DNA of 64,000 nucleotides from Candidatus Curtissbacteria bacterium (GCA_016183325.1 JACPEV010000008.1:472-64471); one strand, 5' to 3'. Shown: positions 200 through 33,157, counted from the first letter of the stretch. The notes: generated by a model not told the origin, from the letters alone. Translations and numbers: made by a program.

Positions 200-205
200 C
201 AGTCT

Positions 206-311
206 ATAATTGTTCAAGAGTACCACGGGTTTTTACCCGTGGGTGAATTGAATAATTACGTACTCGCCGAAGGCGTAGCCTGAGGATACCACGACTGTAA
301 AGTCGTGGTAG
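206..311 (+). repeat. structured three-hairpin element, copy A; near-identical inverted copy at 13441-13549
   Basis: Three hairpins: ccacgggt-tttt-acccgtgg, cgcc-gaa-ggcg and ccacgact-gtaa-agtcgtgg (GNRA loop). An outer pairing joins taattgttc and gaataatta. The reverse complement matches 13441-13549 at about 95%. The element lies between the metallopeptidase gene and cutA. Confidence 0.5.
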
Positions 312-312
312 T

Positions 313-618
313 TCATTTTGTTTCAGAGATCAGCCAGTTAAGATAAGTCTCGCTGACTTTTGAGGATTTGATCGCAACAACTTCTGGAACTTCATAACCT
401 GAATGTTCTTGGATTATTTCTTTGATTTTTTCGAAATTAGAATCTTTCGTTTTCAAAATTATTAAAACTTCGTTGCTTTTTTCAATTTTCCCTTTCCACA
501 AGTAAGCTGATTTAACGGGGAACAAATTGTAACAGGCAATAAGACGTTCTTTTAACAACAGATCGCCGATTTTTCTAGCTGTTACCAATTTGTGGAAGGT
601 GGTAAAAATCAAAATCAT
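313..618 (-). CDS. cutA: divalent-cation tolerance protein CutA
   Basis: The 101-aa translation (…LIACYNLFPVKSAYLWKGKIEKSNEVLIILKTK…HSGYEVPEVVAIK…NWL) shows the CutA1 fold signature. Confidence 0.7.
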   Translation of the reverse strand: MILIFTTFHKLVTARKIGDLLLKERLIACYNLFPVKSAYLWKGKIEKSNEVLIILKTKDSNFEKIKEIIQEHSGYEVPEVVAIKSSKVSETYLNWLISETK

Positions 619-662
619 TTCATTTATTTCCTATTCTTTCAATTTTATGTACATTTTAAATC

Positions 663-696
663 ATCACATTTTACGACATGTCGAATTTTGTGATGG
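663..696. promoter_or_regulatory. 34-nt palindromic operator-like site, copy 2 (ATCACATTTTAYGACATGTCRAA-TTGTGATGG)
   Basis: Perfect inverted arms TCACAATT/AATTGTGA (TCACATTTT/AAAATGTGA in copy 1) around a GACATGTC core. It sits about 45 nt upstream of the cutA start, immediately after the regulator gene's stop. The twin copy is at 1307-1340. Confidence 0.45.
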
Positions 697-698
697 TA

Positions 699-1295
699 TT
701 AAATTCCAAAATATTTTCTGTAAGCAGTTTCGTTCTCTAAACTCCCAACTGTTAATATTTGAACTTCATTTCCAATAGCAAACAATTGTCTTAGATATTC
801 TATTTCATCTTCACATTTAAATGGTGTTAAATAAACGCTCTTTTGAAGCTTTAGCAAATTTAATTTTTTAATTGATATCCTAAATAATTCACTATTTGCC
901 TTTTTTGACTTTACAATATCGTATATTACAAGTCTCCATTTGCCGTCCCATTTTGATTCGTCCAGTTCCATTTCTTCGATCTTGTATCTGAGCAATTTCC
1001 TCTTGCCTTTTTCGGTGATTTTGATAAGCGGATTTCCATTTTCCTCTTTGATCTCAACTAGTTTTGCCTGTTGCATTCTCTTGATGACTTGCCGCAGCCT
1101 CCACAAGTTAAACTTTTCCCATTCCTTTTGTCTCTTTTGCAGCTCTGATTCTCTTTTGGCATCAATAAGGGGTTTGGCAGCCAAAGGCAAACCAGGAAAA
1201 ATAATGCTTCCAACAAGAAAGGTTCCGGCACCGAGAAGTATTAGAACTTCTTTAACCTTCGGATCAATTTTTGGTATTTCTACTATTTTAGGCAC
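699..1295 (-). CDS. membrane-anchored PaaX-like / Cas2-fold domain protein, putative transcriptional regulator
   Basis: N-terminal TM segment (ILLGAGTFLVGSIIFPGLPLA). The C-terminal block WRLVIYDIVKSKKANSELFRISIKKLNLLKLQKSVYLTPF resembles the Cas2/PaaX C-terminal fold (YDI…R…Q-SV). The gene is flanked on both sides by the 34-nt palindrome. Confidence 0.4.
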   Translation of the reverse strand: MPKIVEIPKIDPKVKEVLILLGAGTFLVGSIIFPGLPLAAKPLIDAKRESELQKRQKEWEKFNLWRLRQVIKRMQQAKLVEIKEENGNPLIKITEKGKRKLLRYKIEEMELDESKWDGKWRLVIYDIVKSKKANSELFRISIKKLNLLKLQKSVYLTPFKCEDEIEYLRQLFAIGNEVQILTVGSLENETAYRKYFGI

Positions 1296-1306
1296 GGTTT
1301 TATATT

Positions 1307-1340
1307 ATCACATTTTATGACATGTCAAAAAATGTGATGG
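1307..1340. promoter_or_regulatory. 34-nt palindromic operator-like site, copy 1
   Basis: atcacattttatgacatgtcaaaaaatgtgatgg lies 12 nt upstream of the start of the 699-1295 gene, which suggests autoregulation. It has the same architecture as 663-696. Confidence 0.45.
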
Positions 1341-1387
1341 TTATGCTATAGGGTGCCATTAAGAAACTGTTCTGTTTTAGCTGACAG

Positions 1388-2251
1388 TCATGAGCTGAAG
1401 ACGGAAAGAAGAACGATACCGATTAAAGTAACAATAATGCCTACGATTTGTTGTTTGGTGATCTTGTCTTTGAAAACAAAGAATGCTAATACAACAAATA
1501 AAGTAGGGTATGAGCCGGCAATAGGAGCAATTATCGAAACTAGGCCTTTTTCAATAGCTACATTATAGGTAAAATCCCCCACTCCAACAAGTATAGCAGC
1601 ACCTAATGTTGGAATAAGAGATTGTTTGAGTAGTTTCTTTGAGATTTGAAATTCTCTAAATTTCCAAAATAGCAAGATTAACGGGGTCAGCATTAGGGGA
1701 ATGTACGAAGGCCAAAACCAGCCGATTTCTCGGACGGGAATTTTTACAAATGTGATATATATTGCCCAACACAGCATAGCAATAATTGCAAAAGTAATTC
1801 CACGATCGATGGTTACTCTTCTATTTATGATTTCTTTAAGATTTAAAAGTGAAAAAGTTAAACCAGTAAAAATAATTAAAATTGCCAGAATTTGATTAGA
1901 AGTAATCTTTTCTTTTAGAAAAATTATTGAAAGGAGTACCACTAAAGCTGGAAAAGAGCCAGCAATACTACCAACTAAGGGTGCGTTACCGACTCTTAAC
2001 CCTTCAAAAAAGGCGAGAAAACCTATGATGAGAATAAAACCAATTACTATGTTTAAGATTAAAAGCCCTAAAGTGATATTTTGAAGTTCGTTCAACTGGG
2101 TGAATCCATAAAAGCTGAATAGTACTAAACGGATTATCCGTGTCCAAAAAGTAGTCTGGACACCACCTATTTTTCTAGTAGAAATCGCTCCGAATATATC
2201 ACCTATCCCCAATCCAAAATAAGAAATAAAAGCAAAAAAGATCGCTGGCAT
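1388..2251 (-). CDS. DMT/EamA-family permease
   Basis: 287 aa, about ten hydrophobic helices, EamA-like duplicated topology. Confidence 0.6.
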   Translation of the reverse strand: MPAIFFAFISYFGLGIGDIFGAISTRKIGGVQTTFWTRIIRLVLFSFYGFTQLNELQNITLGLLILNIVIGFILIIGFLAFFEGLRVGNAPLVGSIAGSFPALVVLLSIIFLKEKITSNQILAILIIFTGLTFSLLNLKEIINRRVTIDRGITFAIIAMLCWAIYITFVKIPVREIGWFWPSYIPLMLTPLILLFWKFREFQISKKLLKQSLIPTLGAAILVGVGDFTYNVAIEKGLVSIIAPIAGSYPTLFVVLAFFVFKDKITKQQIVGIIVTLIGIVLLSVFSS

Positions 2252-2276
2252 TTTTTGATTTTATCAGAATTTCAAT

Positions 2277-3572: not shown

Positions 3573-3696
3573 TCTTTATTAGTCTTTCATTTTAACCTAT
3601 TTTATATCTGACTTTTGAATGGTATATTCTAAAATGGCACGAAAGTCCTCCTTCTCCGGCTTCGCCGGATTCGGAGGGTAAAGGAGGCGAATTTTA

Positions 3697-4116
3697 ATGC
3701 TACCATTTGAATCAAATTTTGTAGCCATTATAGTTGCTGCTGTTGCGAATATGGGTTTGGGCGCTTTTTGGTATTCGATGAGCGGACTGGGCAAAACTTG
3801 GATGAAACTTTCCGGCATTTCCAAAGAAGATATTGAAAAAGCTAAAAAAGCCGGTATGACCCAATCATATGTAATAGCCTCAGTAGGTTCACTGGTTATG
3901 GCTTATGTTTTGGGCGTCTTAACCTATTACCTTGGAGCCATGACTTTAATGGGCGGAATGAAAGTTGGAATTTTAGCCTGGCTTGGTTTTATTGCGCCGG
4001 CGATGCTGGGATCAGTTCTCTGGGAAAATAAGTCGTGGAATCTTTACGCAATTAACGCCGGGTATTATCTTGTGTCGCTATCAATTATGGGCGCGATTTT
4101 GGCTCTTTGGAAATAA
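3697..4116 (+). CDS. DUF1761-like small membrane protein
   Basis: 139 aa, four TM segments, conserved W/Y pattern. SD-like ggagg sits 12 nt upstream of the ATG. Confidence 0.45.
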   Translation: MLPFESNFVAIIVAAVANMGLGAFWYSMSGLGKTWMKLSGISKEDIEKAKKAGMTQSYVIASVGSLVMAYVLGVLTYYLGAMTLMGGMKVGILAWLGFIAPAMLGSVLWENKSWNLYAINAGYYLVSLSIMGAILALWK

Positions 4117-4128
4117 TTTTAATTTCTT

Positions 4129-4320
4129 TCACCAACCGAGAGCTTTTACGACCTCATCAGCAGAGTTGTAAGATCCTGCCGGCAAATTCTCTGAGAATTC
4201 TTTTTTATCTTCTTCTGAAAAATCAGAAAGGCCGTCGCACTCTTTAACTAAATCAGCTTTTGAAGCCGGATAGCTTTGATGATTTTTAAGATGGTCAATG
4301 GCACCTGATTTGTTTTGCAT
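4129..4320 (-). CDS. DUF2795-like small protein
   Basis: 63 aa (…YPASKADLVKECDGLSDFSEEDKKEFSENLPAGSYNSADEVVKALG). A strong SD (AAGGAGGTG) lies 8 nt upstream of the ATG. Confidence 0.5.
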   Translation of the reverse strand: MQNKSGAIDHLKNHQSYPASKADLVKECDGLSDFSEEDKKEFSENLPAGSYNSADEVVKALGW

Positions 4321-4430
4321 GTTTATTCACCTCCTTTACTTTAAGGGCAAACCTGACGGTTTTCCCTTAATATTCCCTTTCCCTACATGGAGTAAATTTT
4401 ACTGGCACAGCCAGATAAAATTTACATATT

Positions 4431-4826
4431 TTAGTTTGCGCGGACCTGGACTAGTTGGAAATAGTTGCCGTCTATATCCTCAAAGGTTGAAATCCAGCCA
4501 TAACCCTCTACGTGATAAGTATCCTGAATTTGTTTTACTTTTGCTTTCTTAAGTCTGGCCGCTTCCTTTTTAATATTATCCACTTCTAAATTGAAGATTA
4601 TTCTATCCGGGTTTTTATTTTTGCCTTTGACTTTTGAATGATCAATAACATAAATGCTGGGTCCTTTACCGAGTTTCAACTCGTAAAGTTCCTCGCCTTT
4701 TTCACCCATTACTCCCTCAAAATTAATTTCCAAACCGACTTTTTCCATATAAAAGGTTGCGAGTTTTTTGGCACTTTCGCTGAAGAGATTGATGCTTTCT
4801 AGGCTTGTGATCATAAAATTTATCAC
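4431..4826 (-). CDS. VOC-family (glyoxalase/bleomycin-resistance fold) protein
   Basis: 131 aa with a βαβββ-type pattern and conserved His/Glu positions. SD GAAGGAGGTG lies upstream. Confidence 0.5.
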   Translation of the reverse strand: MINFMITSLESINLFSESAKKLATFYMEKVGLEINFEGVMGEKGEELYELKLGKGPSIYVIDHSKVKGKNKNPDRIIFNLEVDNIKKEAARLKKAKVKQIQDTYHVEGYGWISTFEDIDGNYFQLVQVRAN

Positions 4827-4911
4827 CTCCTTCTATACTTACCGTGGATTCACAGTTTAACTCTAAGGTCGCCAAAATTCAATTGGGATTTTTTTAAGCA
4901 TTCCCTTAAAG

Positions 4912-4958
4912 GTCCGACCTTTTGCAGCTTCAGCTTTTTTTCAAGGTCGGACCTTTTA
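4912..4958. promoter_or_regulatory. 14-bp perfect inverted repeat (AAAGGTCCGACCTTT … AAGGTCGGACCTTT) in a divergent promoter region
   Basis: The two arms are exact reverse complements separated by 17 nt. The site lies between the divergently oriented 4431-4826 and 5054-5467 genes. TTGACA at 4974 and taataat follow it. Confidence 0.3.
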
Positions 4959-5010
4959 AAAATAAGACATTCATTGACAAATTAATAATATAGAGAATAA
5001 TGTATGTGAG

Positions 5011-5052
5011 AAGAAAAGTTTTATTTCATAAAAGAAAAGTTTTATTTCATAA
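5011..5052. repeat. perfect 21-nt tandem duplication (aagaaaagttttatttcataa x2)
   Basis: Read directly. It ends 1 nt before the ATG at 5054. Confidence 0.6.
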
Positions 5053-5053
5053 A

Positions 5054-5467
5054 ATGGAAAAAATTGTTCAGCTTTTGGCAGACCCGAAAATTAAGATTAT
5101 TTTGATAGCCGGCCTTATTATTATTTCCTCAATCATTTATTTTGGAGTCAAAAATCCCCAAATTGAAAATGCGACGGTTGTTAGTCAAACTTCTTCCCCG
5201 TCACCACAGACACCGGCCCCTGAAATTGATGCGGAAATTTTGAAAAACGCCCTGAATCTTTATATTGACAAAAGAGCGGAGAGTATAGACTTGAAAGATG
5301 GTCCATGTCTGGGCAAAATCGCAGAAGATTGGGTTTTGGACATTGCACACAGACCCCGAACTGCCGTTGATGATCTTCCGGAAAATCAGTGCGCGGACTT
5401 TCGCGAAGGCCGCGCTCATCACTTTATAGAACTTGACCCTGACGGACAATTAATCAGAAGCTTTTAA
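5054..5467 (+). CDS. hypothetical membrane-anchored protein
   Basis: Start MEKIVQ chosen after the tandem duplication. N-terminal TM segment, then a Pro/Ser linker and a C-terminal domain containing Cys residues. Confidence 0.35.
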   Translation: MEKIVQLLADPKIKIILIAGLIIISSIIYFGVKNPQIENATVVSQTSSPSPQTPAPEIDAEILKNALNLYIDKRAESIDLKDGPCLGKIAEDWVLDIAHRPRTAVDDLPENQCADFREGRAHHFIELDPDGQLIRSF

Positions 5468-5593
5468 TCCCACAATTTCTTTGTGGCCTTTATTTTGGCG
5501 GGGTTAGTGTTGCCAATGGCAATGATCATAAAAACTTCACCTTTAGTTTATCAACAAAGATAGTAATTGCTCAGTCTCTTTGACAAAGTTTTA

Positions 5594-5672
5594 TTGTTCG
5601 AGCGTAGCCAAGTCTGACTTGGCGTAGTCGAGAACTTCTCGGCTCCCGAGTCTGACTCGGTCGCTCGAAGAA
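5594..5672. repeat. compound palindromic intergenic element (outer stem ttcgagcg/cgctcgaa; inner hairpins gccaag…cttggc, cgagaa…ttctcg, ctcgg…ccgag)
   Basis: Read directly. A related element occurs at 33371-33420, and a ttattgttcgaac start at 62476. Confidence 0.4.
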
Positions 5673-5708
5673 TATTGTGTCAAGGACTCTGAGTAGTTAC
5701 AGATTTAG

Positions 5709-5745
5709 TGCGTCGCACAATCAATGCAGTGCGACATGATATAAT
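5709..5745 (+). promoter_or_regulatory. inverted repeat gtcgcac…gtgcgac overlapping a -10 box (gatataat) upstream of hicB
   Basis: GCGTCGCACAAT-N8-GTGCGAC-ATGATATAAT lies 10 nt before the hicB ATG. The same GCGTCGCACAAT 12-mer recurs at 10184. Confidence 0.4.
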
Positions 5746-5754
5746 ACTAGTAAC

Positions 5755-6042
5755 ATGAAATTACCATTGACCATAAAGGTTTTCTATGAAGGGACCTCTA
5801 AAGACGCACCGTGGGTTTCTTTTAATCCCGAATTTAAAGTTGCATCTTGTGGACCTACACCTAAAAAGGCCGAAGCAAATTTAAAAGAGGCCGTTAGAGG
5901 AGTTTTGAAAACTTGTGAAGACATTGGTACCTTGGAGGATGTTTTGAATGACGCGGGATTTTTAATGGAGGATAAGAAAGTTAAACTAACAAAGGCTACG
6001 GCAAAAATTGAAAACGTCGAAGTTGCCATTCCTGTTCTTTAA
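5755..6042 (+). CDS. hicB: HicB-family antitoxin (UPF0150 fold)
   Basis: 95 aa; …YEGTSKDAPWVSFNPEFKVASCGPTPKKAEANLKEAVRGVL… is typical of the HicB N-domain. It lies immediately upstream of hicA. Confidence 0.55.
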   Translation: MKLPLTIKVFYEGTSKDAPWVSFNPEFKVASCGPTPKKAEANLKEAVRGVLKTCEDIGTLEDVLNDAGFLMEDKKVKLTKATAKIENVEVAIPVL

Positions 6043-6057
6043 TTTTGGAATCTTCTT

Positions 6058-6288
6058 GTGTCTCGCATCATACCAATCCACTACCGCAAATTAGTTAAAG
6101 TTTTCGAGAAGGATGGCTGGAAATTCCATAACCAGACAGGTAGTCACATTCATTTCGTAAAGTCGGGGTTCGAAAGACCTGTGACGATCCCAACATACAA
6201 ATTAGTCCCTGTTTTTATAATTAAGAACAATATGGAAACTGCAAAAATGTCAAGACAGCGATACTTGGAACTTTTACAAAAAGTTTAG
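6058..6288 (+). CDS. hicA: HicA-family mRNA interferase toxin
   Basis: YRKLVKVFEKDGWKFHNQTGSHIHFVKSGFERPVTIPTYK matches the HicA/YcfA dsRBD-like motif (GW…GSH). GTG start. Confidence 0.6.
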   Translation: MSRIIPIHYRKLVKVFEKDGWKFHNQTGSHIHFVKSGFERPVTIPTYKLVPVFIIKNNMETAKMSRQRYLELLQKV

Positions 6289-6321
6289 ACTAGCGGATTT
6301 GACGAAAGAAAATGGGAATTA

Positions 6322-6963
6322 CTAAGTAGTCTTCGTCTTTTGTGTTTCAGGCTCTATTTTTTTAATAGTTATAAAGCTTTTAAGTACAGTGTCGTACATG
6401 TCATGAAAGTTCATAAGTGAAATTACTAGAGAATACAGAATGCAAAAAATGAATATCGTGTAATTTATTTTTATATCCGTTGCAGGTAATTCTATTTTAG
6501 TTTGGTTAAAAATTAAATCATTAATTATAAGCGAAATCGATAGAGCGAAGAATATGTTTGACCAGAAAGCAAATCTTGCAGAGAAATACTCAGGTAATCT
6601 TTCTCGACCTACGCTTGCTAAGTAATTGTGCATTAGGTAAAAATTATTTACAGTATCACCTGGTTTCTTTCGATTAATTTTTTTTAACTCTGAAACTGCT
6701 GCATCATATAAATCTAAATCGCTAAACTTTATCCATAAAAATATGATTTTATTGAGGAAAATTTGTCTGAGAAGTTTAGTAAGAGACTGAAATATAAAAC
6801 CCATAAATAATCCAAACGCTATTAATAGAAGAATCTTAAGAGCATTACCAGCGGTAGCGCTTTCTATATTAATTATTTTTAAGTTTCTATCGTTAATGTA
6901 GAAAAAAAGCAGACCGGGAATTATATTATAGAAAAAACCAATCACTGAGTTTAGATTATCCAT
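6322..6963 (-). CDS. hypothetical polytopic membrane protein (very AT-rich)
   Basis: 213 aa with five or more TM helices. Composition is lower-GC than its neighbours. Confidence 0.35.
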   Translation of the reverse strand: MDNLNSVIGFFYNIIPGLLFFYINDRNLKIINIESATAGNALKILLLIAFGLFMGFIFQSLTKLLRQIFLNKIIFLWIKFSDLDLYDAAVSELKKINRKKPGDTVNNFYLMHNYLASVGRERLPEYFSARFAFWSNIFFALSISLIINDLIFNQTKIELPATDIKINYTIFIFCILYSLVISLMNFHDMYDTVLKSFITIKKIEPETQKTKTT

Positions 6964-6983
6964 TTTTTTTCTATAACTATTAC

Positions 6984-7007
6984 GTCCACTCCCGATGTGA
7001 ATTAGGT
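6984..7007. promoter_or_regulatory. conserved 24-nt motif CCACTCCCGATGTGAATTAG, copy 1
   Basis: It lies 20 nt upstream of the 6322-6963 gene start. On the transcribed strand it reads TAATTCACATCGGGAGTGG and contains a -35-like TTCACA. Confidence 0.35.
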
Positions 7008-7070
7008 TGACACATTTCAGCTACTCGTCGGTAGATTAGGTCTTATCCCTCTTCAAGAAATTGCTTTTTC

Positions 7071-7631
7071 TCAAGATGCTATTTCGCACTGCCTTACTTC
7101 AATAACACCTATTGTTTGTGTACCAACGACTCCACGGACCGTAACTGTTTGGCCATTTTTGAGTGGTAAGAGTTGGGTTTTATCTTCAACACGGCAACTG
7201 ATTTGGGTTAGTGAAAAGTCTTTCGTGGCTACATTATGGAATGATATCCCCGATTCTGTGATATTTGAGATTGTGGCCGAAAACTCGACAAACTTATCTT
7301 TCCACTTTACTTCGGCTGCTACCTGATTAGCGTCGAAGTCATCAGCCAGATCCCTTACGGCAATTTTCATCGGTGTTGGTTTAGGTAACTCTTGCTGTAC
7401 TTCACTTTTGGGTTGTTGAGTAGTTGAGGAAGTGGCTGTATCTTTCTTCTGACTGCTACTACCGGTCACAAATAACCCTACTACCGGTGGTATTACTACA
7501 AAAGCTAAAATTAGAGCCAATATCGGGTGTCGTGCTGGCCAGCTTCTAAGATCAGTTTGGCAATGAGGGCATTTTTTGGCCTTCGCATCAATTTCCGACT
7601 GGCAATCCTTACATTTTTTTGTTGCTTCCAT
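7071..7631 (-). CDS. zinc-ribbon / TM / OB-fold (tRNA_anti-like) protein
   Basis: N-terminal CKDCQ…CPHCQ zinc ribbon, one TM segment, a Ser/Thr/Gln linker and a C-terminal β-rich OB-like domain. Confidence 0.4.
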   Translation of the reverse strand: MEATKKCKDCQSEIDAKAKKCPHCQTDLRSWPARHPILALILAFVVIPPVVGLFVTGSSSQKKDTATSSTTQQPKSEVQQELPKPTPMKIAVRDLADDFDANQVAAEVKWKDKFVEFSATISNITESGISFHNVATKDFSLTQISCRVEDKTQLLPLKNGQTVTVRGVVGTQTIGVIEVRQCEIAS

Positions 7632-7740
7632 GTTTCACCTCCTTCGGCAGATTACCTCTTGGACAATATAGTAACTAATTTAGGCCGACATATCAATCAT
7701 TTTAGTACTTTTTATTGTCTTTGCGCTAATAGAATTTTAC

Positions 7741-7766
7741 ATCCACTCCCCGATGTGAATTAGCTT
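7741..7766. promoter_or_regulatory. conserved motif CCACTCCCCGATGTGAATTAG, copy 2
   Basis: 23 of 24 positions match 6984-7007. It lies about 110 nt upstream of the 7071-7631 gene start. Confidence 0.35.
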
Positions 7767-7770
7767 GGAA

Positions 7771-8331
7771 TCAGATCTGAATTTGAATTTGTGTCTGTGA
7801 TTTTAGAAGGCCAGAAGTGGCATTTCTTACTCTTGTAACCAAATCAGGTTCTTCCCCTCGATACTTTATTTCTATTGAAATTTTAGTTATTTCAATTGTT
7901 CCTTGCCTATCTTCTAACACCCACTCAGCTTTTTGAAGTTGGGCAACAACTCCTTCGTTTCCTCGATCAGCTCCCTCTTGGTTTATCTGCTCACGTAACA
8001 AAGGATCTCTTTCTCGATTGTATCTGTCCCGCCAATCTTGAGCCTTTTGCTCTCTTTCCTGCGCGTCTCTTAGGAGCTTTAAAATATCGGCCTTCGTTCC
8101 TCCTTCAAGCTTGAAGCCGCCAAATTGAAGGGGGTCGAAAGTTGCCCTACCTTGAATCCCGATACTTTCAAATACTCTCTCAAACGAGTTTCTGAATAGA
8201 TCAGCTTTGGCTTCACCGAATAAATATATCGTGACTCTTGTTGGCTCAGGAAGTACAGCAAGTACACGTTCAATGTTCTCGTGAGGGATCTCTGGAACAC
8301 TTCTTATGCTTCTAATTGCCTCTCTATCCAT
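7771..8331 (-). CDS. hypothetical protein
   Basis: 186 aa, charged and Arg/Glu-rich, higher GC than its neighbours. Family not recognised. Confidence 0.3.
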   Translation of the reverse strand: MDREAIRSIRSVPEIPHENIERVLAVLPEPTRVTIYLFGEAKADLFRNSFERVFESIGIQGRATFDPLQFGGFKLEGGTKADILKLLRDAQEREQKAQDWRDRYNRERDPLLREQINQEGADRGNEGVVAQLQKAEWVLEDRQGTIEITKISIEIKYRGEEPDLVTRVRNATSGLLKSQTQIQIQI

Positions 8332-8382
8332 TGTGAGGGAAAAATATCATGAATCATGCTTTTTGTCAAAAGAAAAACTGAA

Positions 8383-8530
8383 AGCGCCGCGCAATAGATA
8401 AACGCGACGTAAAATATTTAGCTTCAATTAGCCTCAATAATACAAAGGGGCAAAAATTGTCAATTTTAGAATTTAGCCCTTCCACTTTGCTCAGGATCTA
8501 TGATCTCGACTCCCCTGTCGATACCATTCC
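8383..8530. repeat. ~150-nt intergenic repeat family, copy R1
   Basis: Aligns with 10183-10327 (…ttagcctc-a-aata…ttttagaatttagcccttc…actcccctg-t-g-tacc). It begins with gcgccgcgcaat. Confidence 0.5.
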
Positions 8531-8600
8531 AAAGTTTTATCTCATTCATTTGGACGTATATTGTTTGTGACAATTGAAGACTGGCTGGTATAATTAATCT

Positions 8601-8897
8601 ATGAAAACGAATGTTGAGCAAATTAAAGAGACTTTAGACCAAAACATGAAACTTCTTAGGGACAAATATGGTGTAAAACAACTCGGGGTGTTTGGCTCAG
8701 TCTCTCGCGGAGAAAATATTGAAACAAGTGATATTGATTTACTTGTTGAATTTTCAAAGCCAATCGGTCTTTTTAAATTTATCGAGCTAGAGGAATATCT
8801 TGGTGAACTTTTAGGTAATAAGGTCGATCTAGTCACAAAGGACGCCCTAAAACCAGCAATCAAAGAAGATGTTCTAAGGGAAGTGATTTATGTCTAA
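8601..8897 (+). CDS. mntA: MntA-type nucleotidyltransferase antitoxin
   Basis: GVFGSVSRGENIETSDIDLLVEF matches the GSxxRG…DxD minimal NTase motif. It overlaps hepT by 8 nt. Confidence 0.75.
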   Translation: MKTNVEQIKETLDQNMKLLRDKYGVKQLGVFGSVSRGENIETSDIDLLVEFSKPIGLFKFIELEEYLGELLGNKVDLVTKDALKPAIKEDVLREVIYV

Positions 8898-9228
8898 AAA
8901 GAGATATAGAGTTTATCTAGACGATATATTAACTTCGGTAGAAAGAATAAAAGATTACACAAAGAATTTATCCAAAGAAGATTTTCTCAAAGATCTGAAA
9001 ACTATAGATGCTGTTGTGAGAAACATCGAAATACTAGGCGAAGCGGCAAGAAATATTCCAGAAGATTTTAAAGAAAAATATCCCGAACTTCCATGGTCAA
9101 AAATGATAAGTATGAGAAACAAGGTGATTCACGAATATTCAGGGATTGATCTTGAAATACTTTGGCAAACGGTCCAAGAGGATATACCAAGCCTAGAAGA
9201 TCAGGTTAAAGAATTAGTAGAAAATTGA
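8890..9228 (+). CDS. hepT: HepT-type (DUF86) toxin
   Basis: RNKVIHEY matches the Rx4HxY motif near the C-terminus. 112 aa. Confidence 0.75.
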   Translation: MSKKRYRVYLDDILTSVERIKDYTKNLSKEDFLKDLKTIDAVVRNIEILGEAARNIPEDFKEKYPELPWSKMISMRNKVIHEYSGIDLEILWQTVQEDIPSLEDQVKELVEN

Positions 9229-9245
9229 GGCAACTTATCGAATCT

Positions 9246-9336
9246 GCCTGAGGAATGTGGGAATTCCTAAGTCGTCTACCATTTTTAGGTTCAAAACCAA
9301 TCAATAACTCCAAGAATGTATTAAGCCATTCTTCAG
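9246..9336 (+). repeat. decayed copy of the ftsZ 3' end (att-like direct repeat, copy 1) plus hairpin ccaagaatg…cattcttc
   Basis: ttatcgaatctgcctgaggaatgtgggaattcc matches ttatctaatttgtctgaggaatgtggggatgtc at 13614-13646 in 27 of 33 positions, same orientation. It is about 85% identical to 11042-11142 over roughly 85 nt. Confidence 0.55.
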
Positions 9337-9400
9337 TTCTCAAAAGGTAAGACTAGAATAACCAATAGTAGGGAAAATAGCAACAAGTTTAAAGGCTGCT

Positions 9401-9769
9401 CTAGGGAGTAGGCTGGCTTGCCTGTGGCTTGTTACTTGAAAATTGACCAAAAAGGTCAGAAAGATTTTTGATCTGATCAGAAGATAAGCTAGTTTTGATA
9501 TCATCAAACCATTCACTCAATAAGGCATCGTATTCATTTTGAAAGGCTTGCTCTAGCTGCTCTGCACTAGCCACTTGATCTATTGAGGGATTTGTATCGG
9601 TGGTGGCACTTTCTTCGAAAACTTGTAACTTTTCTTGAGGAATTTCCTGTAACATTTTTGTAGCGGTTCTTTGCTTGATTGTTGTAAAAAAATCCTCTAC
9701 GAATGCTTCTTTATCGTCTTGATACCCAATTATCTCAAGAATTTTTAAAATAAACTCTTTTCTTTGCAT
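9401..9769 (-). CDS. hypothetical acidic protein
   Basis: 122 aa, no recognisable family. Adjacent to 9772-10128. Confidence 0.3.
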   Translation of the reverse strand: MQRKEFILKILEIIGYQDDKEAFVEDFFTTIKQRTATKMLQEIPQEKLQVFEESATTDTNPSIDQVASAEQLEQAFQNEYDALLSEWFDDIKTSLSSDQIKNLSDLFGQFSSNKPQASQPTP

Positions 9770-9771
9770 TA

Positions 9772-10128
9772 TTAGCTTCTTTTTGTAAATCTTCCTTTTT
9801 CATCTCTAGGTTGTTCATATCTGTGAGGAAAAAACCTTCGACTACCTCCAAGAATGAAGTAATTAGCTCCTACCGCTGATGAAATAAGTCCAGCTGCCTT
9901 TACAATATCTCCTTCAGCAATAGCAATGGACCCGAACGTGGCGGCAGCAGAATCCAGCGCAGTCATAAAAACAAGACCAGCTTTTGTCAGTCCAGTTTTA
10001 TTCTCTATAACCTGCAAGGCATTTTTTGCTGATGTCGTTGCTTTTTCTAAAAAAGATTTTGACGAATCTGTAGGAGATTTTTCGGAAAGACCTTGATTTT
10101 CGCTAAATTCACTGTTACCTTCGCTCAT
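9772..10128 (-). CDS. hypothetical protein
   Basis: 118 aa, Ala/Gly-rich central region. No family recognised. Confidence 0.3.
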   Translation of the reverse strand: MSEGNSEFSENQGLSEKSPTDSSKSFLEKATTSAKNALQVIENKTGLTKAGLVFMTALDSAAATFGSIAIAEGDIVKAAGLISSAVGANYFILGGSRRFFPHRYEQPRDEKGRFTKRS

Positions 10129-10182
10129 TACATATATTATAACATTTTCTTACTTAATACGATTTTTAAAAAAGCGTCGCAC

Positions 10183-10327
10183 AATTATGTTTGTGCGCCT
10201 ATGAAAAATTAGTCTCGTTTAGCCTCGAAAATAAATAGTCGCAAAACGGGTGGTTTTTAAATTTTAGCCCTTCGATAAACTCTGGATTTTCAGCCTCAAC
10301 TCCCCTGCTCGGACTACCCTGTAGTTT
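10183..10327. repeat. ~150-nt intergenic repeat family, copy R2
   Basis: See 8383-8530. It begins gcgtcgcacaattatgtttgtgcgcc, a hairpin also found upstream of hicB. Confidence 0.5.
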
Positions 10328-10329
10328 TC

Positions 10330-10710
10330 CTATCGGAGCGGATTTAGGGTTTTTATGTCTTGCATGGGGAAATGCTTGGTATTCAGAGAGACCAGTTCAA
10401 GATCGTTTACATTGGCACAACCAGCAATTAAACAATCATCTAAGGTGAGATTTTTTAGTTGTTTTGAGTATTGCTGGCAGTAGAGACCGCCAATTTTTGC
10501 GGTTTTTTGGTCTAGATTGAAAATTATATGCTGGTTTAAAAAATCCTCCGTAGTTGACAATTCAGATGGAAAAACATTTCTGAAAATTTCTGCGATTGAA
10601 ATAACGGATATTGCCAGTGGTGATTTTTCTTTGAGTTTTGAGACTTTCTCTTTAACATCCTTTTTGCCTCGCAAAATCCAAATTAAGATATCTGTGTCTA
10701 GGAGAAACAT
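10330..10710 (-). CDS. vapC: VapC PIN-domain toxin
   Basis: MFLLDTDILIWILRG… carries the PIN acidic residues (D5, E, D). 126 aa. Confidence 0.75.
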   Translation of the reverse strand: MFLLDTDILIWILRGKKDVKEKVSKLKEKSPLAISVISIAEIFRNVFPSELSTTEDFLNQHIIFNLDQKTAKIGGLYCQQYSKQLKNLTLDDCLIAGCANVNDLELVSLNTKHFPMQDIKTLNPLR

Positions 10711-10713
10711 TAT

Positions 10714-10992
10714 TTAGAATGTTCGTTGGTTTTTGATGCGATTATTCTTGACCCAATCTATTACTTTCTTCTTTGTAGCCCATTCGGGATGATTTTTAGC
10801 AGTAAAAACACCGCTTGCTTTCCTAAGCGCTCTTTCATACGCGTCTTTGTCAAAAGTAAAGGTCTGAGTTATTTGGGCAATAGTCTTATTCTTTTTTTCG
10901 TCACGAATGAGCACACGGTTTCCTTTTATTACTTTATCCAAATAGCCAGATATATTTTTCCTGAGCTCGCTCACAGATACTGTTAGGGTCAT
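10714..10992 (-). CDS. Phd/YefM-like antitoxin partnered with VapC
   Basis: The N-terminus SVSELRKNISGYLDKVIKGNRVLI is Phd/YefM-like. A 4-nt spacer separates it from vapC. Confidence 0.6.
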   Translation of the reverse strand: MTLTVSVSELRKNISGYLDKVIKGNRVLIRDEKKNKTIAQITQTFTFDKDAYERALRKASGVFTAKNHPEWATKKKVIDWVKNNRIKNQRTF

Positions 10993-11041
10993 ATTTTCAT
11001 ATTAGTACAATATGTACAGATAGTCAATTATTGAGGAAGGA

Positions 11042-11142
11042 TTATCGAATTTGACGAAGGAATGTGGGGATTCCTAGGTCGTCTATCCTATTTAGGTTCA
11101 AAGTAGTTAAGACTGCCAAGAATAACGATTGTCATTCTTGGG
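11042..11142 (+). repeat. decayed copy of the ftsZ 3' end (att-like direct repeat, copy 2) plus hairpin ccaagaat…attcttgg
   Basis: gaaggattatcgaatttgacgaaggaatgtgggga matches gaaggtggttatctaatttgtctgaggaatgtgggga at 13605-13641. Confidence 0.55.
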
Positions 11143-11495
11143 TCATAAAAGATAGGTTAATACTAACCAATAGGTCAAGAAATATCAACAAGCTTCAGCA
11201 TTAGCCAGCTGAAGGTAAATATCGTATAATTTAACTGTGAAATACAAGTTTACAGCTTTAACCTTGTTTGTAGTTTTACTGTTGGGTATTGCCCTAGAAT
11301 TTAGCGAAAGTAAAGAGCACTTCAACACAGATAGAATTTCGATAATCCCTCTCAAGTTAGAAATTCCGAAACAACCACATGAACCAGTTCAGCAATATCC
11401 CATAACTCAAATTAGGTTGTCTGGCATGGCAAATATTGGAACTTCATCTATCAACCCAACGAGAATAAATTCTTCTGGAACAAATTTAACCTAAG

Positions 11496-11873
11496 ATGAA
11501 ATCAAAAGTAGAGACACAAAACGCACCAAGTGCCCCTGGTCTTTTGTCACAAGCAGTTGTAAATAATGGAATTATCTATGTAGCAGGCCAAATACATAGC
11601 TCTCCTAATGGAAAGTTAGTCGAAGGAACAACTGAAGCTAAAGTAAAACTGATAATGAAAAATTTACAAGCTATTCTTAAAGCTGCTGGTGCAGATTTTG
11701 ATGATGTACTTAAAGTAAATGTGTATGTCACGGATATTTCAGACTTACCTAAACTAAACGCAATTTATAAAACTTATTTCACGCAGGAACCTTTACCAGT
11801 TCGTGAAGCTGTTTGTGTTAAAGCCTTGCCACTTGGTGCAAGTATTGAAATGAGTTTAATGGCAGCAAAGTAA
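11496..11873 (+). CDS. ridA: RidA/YjgF-family reactive-intermediate deaminase
   Basis: 125 aa with the typical YjgF signature (…VYVTDISDLPKLNAIYKTYF…PVREAVCVKALPLGASIEM). Confidence 0.8.
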   Translation: MKSKVETQNAPSAPGLLSQAVVNNGIIYVAGQIHSSPNGKLVEGTTEAKVKLIMKNLQAILKAAGADFDDVLKVNVYVTDISDLPKLNAIYKTYFTQEPLPVREAVCVKALPLGASIEMSLMAAK

Positions 11874-11972
11874 TAAGTTAGGCTGTTAAGAATCAGTACG
11901 GTACACCCCTACCCACCCAGTTTTTCTGTATCCCAAAACCTATTAGACCTCGAATAAATCTGCGATGTGATT

Positions 11973-12755
11973 TTAGGTTTGACTGAAGAATCTAGCTATC
12001 ATATCCACCACTTCAGATTCATAGGGCTCATCGTGAAATCCGTGCTTTGACCCCTTGATAACGCGAAACTCCTTGCTGGCGTTAGATAACTCATCAAATC
12101 TATGTTGCACATGTCTAATGTCAACTTTTTCATCTCGGCTACCATGAACAGCAAGTAGCGGACCCATATAATTTTCCAACTCTTGGTACGGATAATAACT
12201 TCTCATTTCATCTATTAGGGGTTTACCCATTTTGAATCTCCTTGAGGCTACTTCAATAAAACCAAATCTTTTTAATCTATCGGTTAAATTGATAAATGTT
12301 CTCATTGCCCAAACCGTGGTTGGGTGTAAAAATGCTTTATCGTAATCGAGCACGGGATTTGCCAAGAACAGCATCTGAACTGCATCTGGATTGCGTCCGG
12401 CATATAGGGCAGCAATACTGCCGCCAAAGCTGGCACCTGCCAGACCTAACCAGTCAATTCCCTTTGCTCTCATAAAATCAACAACTGCTCCCAAATCTCT
12501 TACCTCACCAGAAATAGTGAAGTCCCTAATTGAATCTCCAGAACTTTTACCATGTGCCCTGAAATCAAACCTGATAGTAGAAAACCCGAGTCTATTTAGT
12601 TCTGGTTCTGCACGAACAAATATTCCTTCGTCATCTTTATTTACAGTCATTCCATGAGCAAAAATTATCCCTTTCGAGGAATCTTCGACTTGGATAAATA
12701 CTCCATCCAAACTAAACTTATCCGCAGTTTTTATTTTTATATCTTTACGCTCCAT
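11973..12755 (-). CDS. alpha/beta-hydrolase (dienelactone-hydrolase-like)
   Basis: GxSxG nucleophile elbow (LAGASFGGSIA) and a C-terminal His (GSKHGFHD). Confidence 0.65.
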   Translation of the reverse strand: MERKDIKIKTADKFSLDGVFIQVEDSSKGIIFAHGMTVNKDDEGIFVRAEPELNRLGFSTIRFDFRAHGKSSGDSIRDFTISGEVRDLGAVVDFMRAKGIDWLGLAGASFGGSIAALYAGRNPDAVQMLFLANPVLDYDKAFLHPTTVWAMRTFINLTDRLKRFGFIEVASRRFKMGKPLIDEMRSYYPYQELENYMGPLLAVHGSRDEKVDIRHVQHRFDELSNASKEFRVIKGSKHGFHDEPYESEVVDMIARFFSQT

Positions 12756-12816
12756 AATTTATTTAATCCCATTAAAAGGTACAGATTTGCTTTGTCCGAA
12801 ATTTAAAATCTTTGAT

Positions 12817-13245
12817 TTAGATTGAAATAATGATTTCTTCTTCTTTTCTGTTGAATAATACCTTATGGCACTTGTCGAAAAAGCCATTTTGACCCAAAAG
12901 CGGAATTTGCTGTTGGTAGCTAAAATAGGCGTTTGTTTCGATTTTGTGGCCTTCTATAAAAATTCCGATGCCTTCATGAAGGAAGCTGTCAATCTGGATA
13001 TCGCCAATTCCTGCGATTTTGTGTTTTTTGCCCTTTGGAATATTAATTCCTAACTTTTCTCCAAGTGATGCTGGGAATAAATTGACGCTCGCTCCTGAAT
13101 CGACAAGTGCCAGAACATTGAACATCTGTCCTCTTTTGTAATTAATAACAACGTCGATCAACGGAATGGGAACGTAAATTACTTTTTCATTTTGCTGTCG
13201 TGGAGCTTGAAAATATCTAAATTTGTGAGCGGACATCAAGGACAA
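12817..13245 (-). CDS. retropepsin-like (clan AA) aspartic protease, cassette 1
   Basis: LALVDSGASVNLFP matches the D-S/T-G-A catalytic motif. A likely true start is the Met at 13236, whose ATG overlaps the upstream stop (TGATG). Confidence 0.6.
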   Translation of the reverse strand: MSLMSAHKFRYFQAPRQQNEKVIYVPIPLIDVVINYKRGQMFNVLALVDSGASVNLFPASLGEKLGINIPKGKKHKIAGIGDIQIDSFLHEGIGIFIEGHKIETNAYFSYQQQIPLLGQNGFFDKCHKVLFNRKEEEIIISI

Positions 13246-13430
13246 TAGGGCACTAGAGGGGGAACTGCCATAAAAATTACTTTTTCCCTATCAACTTTTT
13301 TTGATACTTCCTCAAGGCTTTTTCCGTGGGCAACTATTTTTGTCTTATTTTTATCCAGAGCTACCCACTGCTTTGCATATTTTTCTAATCCTTTAATTGG
13401 TTTCTGTTTCATAAACCTATTATACTCCAA
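13236..13430 (-). CDS. small partner protein of the retropepsin cassette (KYxxxWVAL…V-A-G motif)
   Basis: 64 aa; KYAKQWVALDKNKTKIVAHGKSLEE aligns with the 61746-61943 product (KYKGKWVALKDDEKTVVASGSTAKE). Translationally coupled to the protease. Confidence 0.5.
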   Translation of the reverse strand: MEYNRFMKQKPIKGLEKYAKQWVALDKNKTKIVAHGKSLEEVSKKVDREKVIFMAVPPLVPYCP

Positions 13431-13440
13431 TTTTCAAATG

Positions 13441-13549
13441 AACTACCACGACTTAACAGTCGTGGTATCCTCAGGCTACGCCTTCGGCGAGTACGTAATT
13501 GTTCAATTCACCCACGGGTAAAAACCCGTGGTACTTGCGAACAATTATA
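13441..13549 (-). repeat. structured three-hairpin element, copy B (inverted relative to copy A at 206-311)
   Basis: About 95% identical to the reverse complement of 206-311. It lies between the ftsZ stop and the cassette 1 start. Confidence 0.5.
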
Positions 13550-13615
13550 AATCCTGAATCCTTAACAGGTCGGAGTCGTTAGACTCCAGACAAGTCCAGG
13601 ATGACAAGAAGGTGG

Positions 13616-33152: not shown

Positions 33153-33157
33153 AAGTT

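What the first reader, a model, noticed from the sequence alone, without database searches (positions are those of the whole stretch)
206..13549. Pair of ~105-nt three-hairpin elements in inverted orientation, 13 kb apart
206-311 and 13441-13549 are near-perfect reverse complements, with 2-3 substitutions and one 1-nt indel. Each folds into three hairpins: an 8-bp stem with a UUUU loop, a 4-bp stem with a GAA loop, and an 8-bp stem with a GUAA (GNRA) loop. There is also a 9-bp long-range closing helix. The first two substitutions (a UUU/UUA change in the GUAA-hairpin flank and UAUU/UGUU) leave all three hairpins intact; the remaining UUGCGA/GAGA difference lies in the connector between the UUUU hairpin and the closing helix. 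In both copies the same sense lies directly after a gene stop on the transcribed strand. One follows the metallopeptidase gene and one follows ftsZ, ahead of retropepsin cassette 1. It is a candidate small structured RNA, 3'-UTR element or mobile miniature element. There is no transposase between the copies, so a composite-transposon reading is unlikely.
Basis: seen in the sequence. Interest (0 to 1): 0.55.

Follow-up and report, generated by a model that had tools for sequence, protein, structure and literature searches.

The report
Conserved three-hairpin RNA-like element, duplicated
The two inverted 114-base sequences are copies of a previously undescribed, structurally conserved RNA-like element. 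It occurs in ultra-small (CPR) bacteria from at least two major lineages, sits at different genome positions in different genomes, and matches no catalogued RNA family.

Summary
Window 205-319 (+) and 13436-13549 (-) are 114-nt inverted copies, 96% identical, with 5 substitutions and no indel. They are the only two copies in the 64 kb.

This is not a private duplication. An exact 20-mer scan of metagenomes found 12 further copies (11 distinct). These show compensatory changes in two helices (14 pairs changed on both sides, 96% of cells paired). They also share invariant positions beyond the searched 20-mer, inside a ~45-nt segment (ACUYGCCGAAGGCGUAGCCUGAGGAURCCA) and a ...GUAGUUCA tail.

Hosts include Candidatus Curtissbacteria (this window) and a Nealsonbacteria contig whose RsmH and FtsI are only 41% and 36% identical to the window's. 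No Rfam family matches, and there are no phage or plasmid hits.

The unit has sharp ends and low copy number. Its position varies: the ftsZ-DUF5678 junction is empty in three related Curtissbacteria.

Best reading (about 0.45): a new structured RNA module, transcribed with the upstream gene, whose invariant core is a binding platform.

Main rival (about 0.2): a single-strand-DNA element moved by a Y1/HUH transposase. A RAYT-like gene lies at 55147-55821, but its own flanking hairpins differ from the element's.

Function is unproven, and no expression data were available.

The parts
205..319 (+). Copy A of the element. The family-defined unit is 205-316 (TAT...GTTCAT). Identity with copy B runs to 318.
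   Evidence: (130.6 bits)
13436..13549 (-). Copy B of the element. The family-defined unit is 13438-13549. Coordinates map as B = 13754 - A.
   Evidence: (123.2 bits)
207..258 (+). P1 bipartite hairpin of copy A: lower helix 207-217 / 248-258, purine-rich 5x5 internal loop 218-222 (GAGUA) / 243-247 (GUGAA), apex helix 223-230 / 235-242, loop 231-234.
   Evidence: Fold. Covariation: 6 of 10 lower-helix pairs and 3 of 7 apex pairs change on both sides.
259..288 (+). Linker and core CGUACUCGCCGAAGGCGUAGCCUGAGGAUA, mostly invariant across the family. It forms either CGCC-GAA-GGCG, or CC-GA-AGGC / GCCU-GA-GG with a GUA loop and tandem G-A.
   Evidence: Positions outside the searched 20-mer are also invariant.
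287..310 (+). P3 hairpin of copy A: 10 bp, loop GUAA. The CCACG/CGUGG base is conserved and the inner pairs covary. It scores as terminator-like together with the tail GUUCAUUUUG.
311..316 (+). Conserved 3' tail GUUCAU. The stop codon of the convergent CutA1 gene (313-315) overlaps it.
13444..13467 (-). P3 hairpin of copy B (loop GUUA). Terminator-like by the simple scan.
13496..13547 (-). P1 bipartite hairpin of copy B. The lower helix has G-C where copy A has G-U, and its top two pairs are weakened by GCA replacing AAG.

Best explanation
The two sequences are paralogous copies of a new family of ~112-nt structured, strand-specific elements found in CPR/Patescibacteria. The window is Candidatus Curtissbacteria.

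Most likely the element works as RNA. It is transcribed in the sense of the gene on its 5' side. No conserved promoter precedes it, it starts 4-66 nt after stop codons, and in some genomes it lies inside operons.

It folds into three parts: a bipartite hairpin P1 with a conserved purine-rich internal loop, a short central hairpin, and a 3' hairpin P3 followed by UAGUUCAU and usually U/A-rich sequence.

The helices are a scaffold: they covary. The invariant ~45-nt segment, together with the two similar 'UA-CCACG...CGUGG' hairpin bases, would be the recognition surface for a conserved cellular factor, either protein or RNA. P3 would help form or protect the 3' end, so that a discrete ~110-nt RNA, or a stabilised upstream mRNA, results.

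The unit is duplicated or relocated as a discrete piece on the time scale of species and genus divergence. This explains two near-identical inverted copies 13 kb apart, bordering a variable island rich in toxin-antitoxin genes.

What is shown: the repeat, the family, the covariation, the invariant core, the variable position, the absence from Rfam.
What is inferred: transcription, the binding platform, the 3'-end role.
For: The repeat is real and limited to two copies in the window.

Twelve further copies (11 distinct sequences) were found in metagenomes. All score 81-125 bits with the model.

Covariation: 14 of 33 pairs change on both sides and 96% of cells are paired, against 28-44% when the partners are slid. 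No shuffle of 500 reaches the observed value.

About 20 positions outside the searched 20-mer are also invariant.

In P1 the 3'-strand changes are wobble-compatible on this strand (10 G-U pairs).

Hosts are deeply diverged. The window FtsZ is 100% identical to a Curtissbacteria protein. The L028 host RsmH is 100% identical to a Nealsonbacteria protein, and only 41% (RsmH) and 36% (FtsI) identical to the window's.

The exact core occurs once in an 864-kb contig and once in a 1.02-Mb contig, so copy number is low.

No copy lies between divergent genes. In every tandem-gene context the element is co-oriented with its neighbours: window B, L018, L022, L025, L028, L036.

In L023 it lies between two tRNA genes.

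The reverse-strand ORF MNYH... changes frame between homologues, so the element is not coding.

No Rfam match at gathering score or at E<=10 / E<=1.

P3 with its tail passes the terminator scan in both copies.
Against: There are no expression data.

No conserved promoter was found. In most copies a TATAAT lies inside the P1 5' strand, which would truncate P1 if it were used as a promoter.

The U-rich tail is not uniform across the family. The element also lies inside essential operons, ftsL-ftsI in L028 and murI-murD in the divergent L036. So it cannot be an efficient terminator everywhere.

The G-U excess over A-C mismatches is modest (about 11 vs 7).

Core invariance is partly imposed by the exact-match search.

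The site is empty in close relatives, and a different structured insert occupies the ftsL-ftsI site of an 85%-RsmH relative. This looks more like a mobile insertion than a fixed RNA gene.
Confidence: 0.45

Rival explanations
1. It is a non-autonomous single-strand-DNA transposon, like an IS200/IS605-derived PATE or a REP-like unit. A Y1 HUH transposase moves it in trans, for example the RAYT-like protein encoded at window 55147-55821. The two similar subterminal hairpins would be the transposase binding sites, and the structure would be selected in ssDNA rather than RNA.
For: The window encodes a 224-aa Y1_Tnp protein: Pfam E=1e-11, and its best NCBIfam hit is REP-associated tyrosine transposase. 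It has an HUH motif (NHVHFLL) and the motif RYIHLNP. The gene is flanked by inverted ~54-nt palindromes.

Homologues are widespread in Microgenomates.

The element has two similar hairpins (UACCACG...CGUGG). One lies 18 nt from the left end and the other 8 nt from the right end. From my own knowledge, this resembles the IS608 geometry of 19 and 10 nt.

There are no terminal inverted repeats and no target duplication. The unit ends are sharp, and the left junction is T-Y-TAT in 11 of 13 copies.

Insertion polymorphism is seen.

L023 and L027 are 98% identical with unrelated flanks.

There is weak similarity between the element and the RAYT downstream flank: TAATTNCNTACTCGCC(G)AAG, 10 of 2000 shuffles. 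TACTCGCC occurs 6 times against 0.6 expected.
Against: The hairpins flanking the RAYT gene (TCCGAAC-CCG-GTTCGGA) differ from the element's. These flanks score only ~10 bits, E about 1, with the element model.

RAYT flanks in other genomes (L040, L045) differ again, while the element core stays invariant.

No element lies near RAYT genes in 47 kb of such loci.

Copy number is low: one exact core in each of two ~0.9-1 Mb contigs.

In the element the hairpin interiors vary while the linker is invariant. This is the opposite of what transposase recognition of hairpins predicts.

Covariation of the P1 lower helix has no role in that mechanism.

The GTAG lies 3' of the hairpin, not 5' as in REPs.

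Genome-wide, chance similarities to the core reach the same score (22 vs 23).
Confidence: 0.2
2. It is an independent trans-acting small RNA gene with its own promoter and terminator. It would be a CPR-specific housekeeping or regulatory RNP RNA present in one or two copies per genome. The sharp ends of homology would simply reflect purifying selection on the RNA while the flanks drift.
For: There is one exact core per 864-kb and per 1.02-Mb contig.

The core is invariant between Curtissbacteria and Nealsonbacteria hosts.

In L023 it lies among tRNA genes. In L022 it lies ~2 kb from the RNase P RNA gene.

L028 has an extended -10 (TGTATAAT) 14 nt upstream.

The differences between copies A and B are structure-neutral.
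Against: No promoter is conserved at a fixed distance.

Several copies abut the upstream stop codon. In L022 the element directly follows a terminator hairpin.

A 677-kb Curtissbacteria contig has no exact core.

Position is not conserved even among genomes with 85-93% FtsZ identity.
Confidence: 0.2
3. It is a regulated attenuator, in the manner of a riboswitch or protein-dependent terminator. It would control read-through into the downstream gene through alternative pairing between the nearly identical P1-apex and P3 stems.
For: The P1 apex and P3 share the CCACG/CGUGG base and are identical in L017 and L028. An apex-3': P3-5' antiterminator helix is therefore possible.

In five copies the start codon of a co-oriented gene follows within 6-25 nt.
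Against: The downstream genes are functionally unrelated: DUF5678, frr, comM, ftsI, and a T4SS pilin.

At least five copies face a convergent gene, so nothing lies downstream to regulate.

In L035 the apex covaries within itself (CCAUG/CAUGG) and not with P3.

L025 lacks the apex hairpin altogether.
Confidence: 0.07
4. It is a plain local duplication with no function of its own: the ends of a composite transposon, or merely the substrate of a 13-kb inversion.
For: There are two inverted copies 13 kb apart, bordering a variable island rich in toxin-antitoxin genes.
Against: Homologues with covariation exist in unrelated contexts in other genomes.

No transposase lies between the copies.

The genes in the island that are shared with L038 keep the same orientation relative to ftsZ, so the segment is not inverted.

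The duplicated unit coincides exactly with the conserved family unit.
Confidence: 0.03

Closest known systems
Orphan structured non-coding RNA motifs found by comparative genomics (the kind catalogued in Rfam without a known function)
   Same: It is about 110 nt long, with covarying helices around an invariant single-stranded or irregular core. It is intergenic, strand-specific and restricted to one lineage.
   Different: No Rfam 15 model matches. Its position varies between close relatives, and the unit is duplicated with sharp ends. This is unusual for a fixed RNA gene.
REP / BIME / REPIN elements with their RAYT (Y1 HUH) transposase
   Same: It is extragenic and lies at the 3' ends of genes, never between divergent genes. 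It forms hairpins. A RAYT-like gene flanked by inverted palindromes is present in the same window.
   Different: It is 112 nt with three different hairpins, not a 20-40-nt palindrome or an inverted pair of them. Its GTAG is on the wrong side of the hairpin. Copy number is low. The RAYT gene's flanking repeats are a different sequence.
IS200/IS605-derived miniature elements (PATEs)
   Same: It has subterminal hairpins near both ends, no terminal inverted repeats, no target duplication, strand specificity and a conserved short motif at the left junction.
   Different: No cognate full-length element with these ends was found. The linker is invariant while the hairpin interiors vary. The extra P1 lower helix covaries. 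There are only one or two copies per genome.
Transcribed intergenic repeats that act on mRNA: Correia elements of Neisseria, ERIC, and BOX/RUP of pneumococcus
   Same: It is a 100-150-nt structured insertion in intergenic spacers. It is co-transcribed with neighbouring genes, is sometimes terminator-like, and is present or absent between relatives.
   Different: Those elements have terminal inverted repeats and/or target duplications, occur in tens to hundreds of copies, and are confined to one genus. This one is low-copy and conserved between CPR superphyla.
Intrinsic (Rho-independent) terminators
   Same: P3 is a GC-rich 8-10-bp hairpin followed by U-rich sequence, and passes a simple terminator scan in both copies.
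   Different: The U tract is offset by GUUCA and is absent in several homologues. The element sits inside operons. Terminators do not carry a 45-nt segment conserved between superphyla.

Membership tests
Any Rfam 15 family (including 5S rRNA, SRP RNA, 6S RNA, tRNA, self-cleaving ribozymes, riboswitches) | Covariance-model score at or near the family's gathering threshold | tested here: not met
   The only window hit at gathering score is a SAM riboswitch elsewhere. At E<=10 on 150-400, and at E<=1 on five homologous loci, nothing overlaps the element except sub-threshold noise. ARAGORN finds no tRNA or tmRNA at the element.
REP elements (RAYT-associated) | Short (20-40 nt) imperfect palindrome with a conserved GTAG 5' of the stem | tested here: not met
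   The unit is 112 nt with three different hairpins. GTAG follows P3 (CGUGGUAG) instead of preceding it.
REP elements (RAYT-associated) | The same repeat flanks the RAYT gene | tested here: not met
   The RAYT flanks are ~54-nt palindromes with a TCCGAAC/GTTCGGA hairpin. They score ~10 bits, E about 1, with the element model. Only a weak 20-nt similarity exists, p about 0.005.
REP elements (RAYT-associated) | A RAYT (Y1 HUH transposase) is encoded in the genome | tested here: met
   Window 55147-55821 (-): PF01797 E=1e-11. NF047646 scores 59.6 bits, below the cut-off of 80. HUH and catalytic Tyr motifs are present.
REP elements (RAYT-associated) | High copy number, dispersed through the genome | tested here: not met
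   There are 2 copies in 64 kb and one exact core in each of an 864-kb and a 1.02-Mb contig. The whole genome of this organism was not available.
IS200/IS605-derived miniature element (PATE) | Left and right ends each carry a similar subterminal hairpin; no terminal inverted repeats and no target duplication | tested here: met
   UACCACG...CGUGG hairpins lie 18 nt from the left end and 8 nt from the right end. The flanks show no duplication.
IS200/IS605-derived miniature element (PATE) | A cognate full-length element (tnpA +/- tnpB) carries the same ends | tested here: not met
   None is present in the window or in any fetched locus. The Y1 gene in the window has different flanks.
IS200/IS605-derived miniature element (PATE) | A fixed tetra- or pentanucleotide target lies immediately 5' of the left end | tested here: inconclusive
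   The left junction reads T-Y-TAT in 11 of 13 copies. TAT may belong to the element itself, since its last T pairs in P1.
Classical MITE | Terminal inverted repeats and a target-site duplication | tested here: not met
   The termini TATAAT... and ...GTTCAT are not inverted repeats, and no duplication flanks either copy.
Composite transposon | Insertion sequences with a transposase at both ends | tested here: not met
   The arms are 114 nt and non-coding. No transposase domain appears among the genes between them.
Intrinsic terminator | GC-rich stem-loop directly followed by a U tract | tested here: inconclusive
   Both window copies pass the simple scan. The tail is not U-rich in L023, L025 and L033, and the element lies inside the ftsL-ftsI operon in L028.
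Riboswitch or cis-regulatory leader | Conserved aptamer upstream of a functionally coherent set of genes | tested here: not met
   The downstream genes are unrelated, or are convergent.
Integron attC site | R''(RYYYAAC)...R'(GTTRRRY) arms in that order, one per cassette in direct orientation | tested here: not met
   P1 has GTTCAA 5' and TTGAAC 3', which is the opposite order. There are only two sites and they are inverted.

The most novel reading that the evidence does not exclude
The element is a previously unrecognised small RNA of CPR/Patescibacteria. It would be the RNA part of a conserved ribonucleoprotein, or a ligand of a conserved enzyme. Its sequence core is held invariant between Microgenomates and Parcubacteria to a degree otherwise seen in universal RNAs, yet the gene moves and duplicates as a discrete unit.
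Probability: 0.2. Interest if true: 0.8.

Novelty: new member of a known kind. Interest (0 to 1): 0.58.

Why it matters
CPR bacteria make up a large share of bacterial diversity, and almost nothing is known about their non-coding RNAs.

This is a ~112-nt element with clear covariation and a core unchanged between hosts whose housekeeping proteins are only 36-41% identical. That makes it a concrete, testable candidate for a lineage-specific functional RNA.

If instead a Y1/HUH transposase moves it, it would be the first REP/PATE-like system described in CPR, and an unusual one: composite, low-copy and with an invariant linker.

Either outcome can be tested directly by model searches of complete genomes, by metatranscriptomes and by simple biochemistry.

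Tried and rejected
- A loose two-hairpin pattern against IMG/VR gave only GC-rich chance hits and a CRISPR-like array.
- The exact core and a P3-plus-tail pattern gave nothing in IMG/VR.
- The P3 hairpin pattern against GTDB species genomes found only one isolated match in a Chloroflexota MAG and an unrelated multi-hairpin element in Ignavibacteria/Chlorobiota.
- blastn against plasmids and phages found no match.
- Literature searches by taxon, by topic and by the core sequence found nothing relevant.
- A small ORF on the reverse strand (MNYH...) was rejected, because hairpin-length differences shift the frame between homologues.
- Several identities were considered by eye and rejected: kink-turn (GA is not adjacent to the C-stem), hammerhead core (no GAAA after stem II), SRP domain IV, 5S loop E, a tRNA-like cloverleaf, attC, dif, parS, a DnaA box, and a dimeric-operator palindrome (this cannot explain the covariation of inner stem positions or of the P1 lower helix).
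- A long-range helix GAACU/AGUUC was rejected because only 3 bp are consistently kept.
- Promoter use of the TATAAT at the element's start was rejected because it would truncate a helix that covaries.
- Similarity to the RAYT flanks is real but weak, and is not supported by the model or by other genomes.
- One look-up only repeated.

Full report
**The observation**

Window 205-318 and 13436-13549 are inverted copies of 114 nt, 96% complementary. The alignment shows five substitutions and no indel:
- AAG vs GCA at 216-218
- T vs C at 253
- A vs T at 299

Sub-patterns of 20 and 33 nt occur only at these two places, against 0.00-0.02 expected by chance. A family model run with all filters off finds only these two copies in the 64 kb.

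The sense strand folds at -51.2 kcal/mol with z = -6.7. The structure has four parts:
- A bipartite hairpin P1. It has an 11-bp lower helix (207-217 / 248-258), a 5x5 internal loop (GAGUA / GUGAA), and an 8-bp apex helix with a UUUU loop.
- A short central hairpin inside ACUCGCCGAAGGCGUAGCCUGAGGAUA.
- A 10-bp hairpin P3 (287-310).
- The tail GUUCAU.

The GUAA loop is GUUA in copy B.

- Copy A starts 5 nt after the stop of a Zincin_1 peptidase. The stop codon of a convergent CutA1 gene overlaps its last bases.
- Copy B starts 66 nt after the ftsZ stop and ends 25 nt before a DUF5678 + retropepsin-like pair.

**The organism**

The FtsZ protein is 100% identical to one from Candidatus Curtissbacteria (Microgenomates, CPR), on a 67,095-bp NCBI contig. 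Short Logan contigs that are 100% identical to the window all break at or inside the element. This is expected for a repeated sequence.

**It is a family, not a private duplication**

An exact scan of JGI/ENA metagenome contigs with the central 20-mer GCCGAAGGCGTAGCCTGAGG returned 19 loci. Twelve of them (11 distinct sequences) carry the whole element. They score 81-125 bits with a model built from the alignment.

P1 and P3 covary:
- The AT-rich P1 (UAAUUGUUCAA / UUGAACAAUUA) is replaced by GC-rich helices (UUCCGUUCCGC / GCGGAACGGAA) in other copies.
- The inner pairs of P3 change in step.
- 14 of 33 pairs change on both sides.
- 96% of cells are paired, against 28-44% when the partners are slid.
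- No shuffle of 500 reaches the observed values.

About 20 positions outside the searched 20-mer are also invariant. These are ACU before it, AU.CCA after it, and G.U.G.AGUUCA at the 3' end. So the core conservation is only partly imposed by the search.

A reverse-strand ORF (MNYH...) is not conserved in frame. Rfam 15 has no match, either at gathering score or with permissive E-values, on the window or on five homologous loci. Plasmid, phage and IMG/VR collections have no match.

**Breadth and copy number**

The L028 copy lies in a contig whose RsmH is 100% identical to a Candidatus Nealsonbacteria protein (Parcubacteria). That host's RsmH is 41% and its FtsI 36% identical to the window's. 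The family therefore spans two CPR superphyla.

The exact core occurs once in an 864-kb contig and once in a 1.02-Mb contig. Pairwise identity of the element:

| Pair | Identity |
|---|---|
| The two window copies | 96% |
| Window A to L033 / L034 / L024 | 90-93% |
| Window copies to the GC-rich clade (L017, L022, L028) | 67-73% |
| L023 to L027 (same aquifer site, unrelated flanks) | 98% |

Weak model hits with the same architecture but a different centre occur in L036 (E=1e-4), L025 (second site, E=0.004) and L039 (E=0.008). They have a hairpin flanked by GAAAA...AUGAAGC, a purine-rich tract, and a CCAYGG hairpin followed by a U-rich tail. I treat these as possible distant relatives only.

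**Position is not conserved**

The ftsZ-to-next-gene spacer is 42-52 nt and lacks the element in three related Curtissbacteria, with FtsZ 93%, 85% and 87% identical. No copy is found elsewhere in those 56 kb.

In the Nealsonbacteria lineage, the ftsL-ftsI spacer varies in the same way:

| Locus | ftsL-ftsI spacer |
|---|---|
| L028 | Holds the element |
| Relative with 85% RsmH identity | A different 214-nt structured insert |
| Relative with 65% RsmH identity | Only 5 nt |

Contexts across the family are unrelated:
- after prmC
- before frr, comM, ftsI and a T4SS pilin gene
- between tRNA-Lys and tRNA-Gln
- near an IS110 transposase and a helix-turn-helix transposase

The element is never found between divergent genes. 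In all six tandem-gene contexts it is co-oriented with its neighbours (about p = 0.016 if orientation were random). The boundaries of homology between paralogues coincide with the family boundaries (T-Y|TAT ... GTTCAT).

**What it most likely is**

I favour an RNA-level function (0.45). The supporting points are these:
- The helices covary while the linker is invariant in sequence.
- The wobble changes in P1 fit this strand.
- The element is low-copy.
- It is conserved across hosts far more diverged than selfish repeats usually survive.

I infer, but have not shown, the following:
- It is transcribed with the upstream gene, because no promoter is conserved.
- The core and the two similar hairpin bases bind a conserved factor.
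- P3 helps form or protect a 3' end. Both window copies pass a simple terminator scan.

It cannot be a strong terminator everywhere, because it lies inside operons.

**The main rival**

The window encodes a RAYT-like Y1 HUH transposase at 55147-55821. The gene is flanked by inverted ~54-nt palindromes. The protein belongs to a family that is widespread in Microgenomates and sits at fixed loci.

The following features fit a single-strand-DNA element moved in trans:
- the geometry of the element, with similar hairpins 18 nt from one end and 8 nt from the other
- no inverted termini and no target duplication
- a semi-conserved left junction
- insertion polymorphism

Against it:
- The transposase's own flanks have a different hairpin.
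- Those flanks score only about 10 bits with the element model.
- They share only a weak 20-nt similarity with the element.
- Flanks in other genomes differ, while the element core does not.
- Copy number is low.

I give this rival 0.2.

A stand-alone small RNA gene (0.2), a regulated attenuator (0.07) and a mere duplication or inversion substrate (0.03) are discussed in the rival section.

**Verdict**

The finding is real and more interesting than a local duplication. It is a new, covarying, CPR-wide structured element absent from Rfam. Its function and its mode of spread are unresolved.

Noticed in passing
window 9235-9282 (-); also 11042-11102, 6290-6350 and 13616-13676: A 15-aa mini-ORF, MVDDLGIPTFLRQIR*, repeats the C-terminal FtsA-binding peptide of the window's own FtsZ (...DEFDIPTFLRQIR*). 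Two more copies of this 61-nt repeat lie in the island. One lacks an ATG (DDLGIPTFLRQIR*). The other is one frame off the end of the 213-aa ORF 6322-6963. They could be FtsZ-tail mimics.
   Followed up: partly
window 55147-55821 (-), flanks 55085-55140 and 55845-55895: A RAYT-like Y1 HUH transposase gene (224 aa) is flanked by two inverted copies of a ~54-nt palindrome (CCYTACTCGCCAAGCTARTCCGAACCCGGTTYGG...). Homologues of ~222 aa are common in Microgenomates and sit at fixed single loci.
   Followed up: yes
window 13552-13609 (-): A strong extended hairpin lies between the ftsZ stop and copy B. It has no alignable counterpart in the 42-52-nt spacers of related genomes. Three Logan contigs all end at 13566, inside it and 17 nt before the element.
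   Followed up: partly
window 654-697 and 1298-1341: A 44-nt palindromic sequence (ATCACATTTTAYGACATGTC...GTGATGGT) occurs on both sides of the PaaX_M / Cas2-like gene at 699-1295. It looks like an operator.
   Followed up: no
window 13236-13412 + 12817-13245; 61683-62335; 51228-51899: There are two DUF5678 + retropepsin-like aspartyl protease gene pairs and one lone retropepsin-like gene. The same pair follows ftsZ directly in related Curtissbacteria.
   Followed up: partly
window 4200-13400: The 13 kb between the copies is a variable island of small modules: HicA/HicB-like, HepT + nucleotidyltransferase, and a PIN gene with an adjacent small putative antitoxin gene, plus internal repeats (e.g. 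8413-8482 / 10204-10273). Its gene content differs from L036, L038 and L039.
   Followed up: partly
window 33156-33267 (-): A SAM riboswitch scores just above the gathering threshold (44.7 vs 44.4 bits), upstream of the 367-aa gene at 32018-33121. The next 1.7 kb (33.3-34.9 kb) has no ORF of 70 aa or more.
   Followed up: no
L048 5295-5508; L050 5241-5245: The ftsL-ftsI spacer of a Nealsonbacteria relative holds a different 214-nt hairpin-rich insert with CUUUAG-type loops. A more distant relative has only 5 nt there. This spacer seems to collect structured insertions.
   Followed up: partly
L036 604-710 (+); L039 20324-20463 (-); L025 8615-8727 (-): These are weak model hits with the same layout as the element but a different centre: a hairpin flanked by GAAAA...AUGAAGC, a purine tract, a CCAYGG hairpin and a U-rich tail. 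They may be distant subfamilies.
   Followed up: partly
L013 ~539, L015 ~2754, L016 ~4049: Ignavibacteria/Chlorobiota MAGs carry an intergenic multi-hairpin element (TTACCACGACTTTTAAGTCGTGGTAAGA, then GGGCTTTAGCCC and other hairpins). In L013 and L015 these further hairpins include GGACTAAAGTCC. It shares the P3 stem sequence by exact match, and has no Rfam hit.
   Followed up: partly
L011 5788-6019: A 543-kb IMG/VR contig has a CRISPR-like array with the repeat GCACCACGGGCGAATTGCCGTGGTATTGCTTC.
   Followed up: no
L023 265-338, 798-869, 1243-2388: In this Hainich aquifer contig the element lies between tRNA-Lys(UUU) and a convergent tRNA-Gln(CUG). An IS110-family transposase gene lies 0.5 kb away.
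   Followed up: partly
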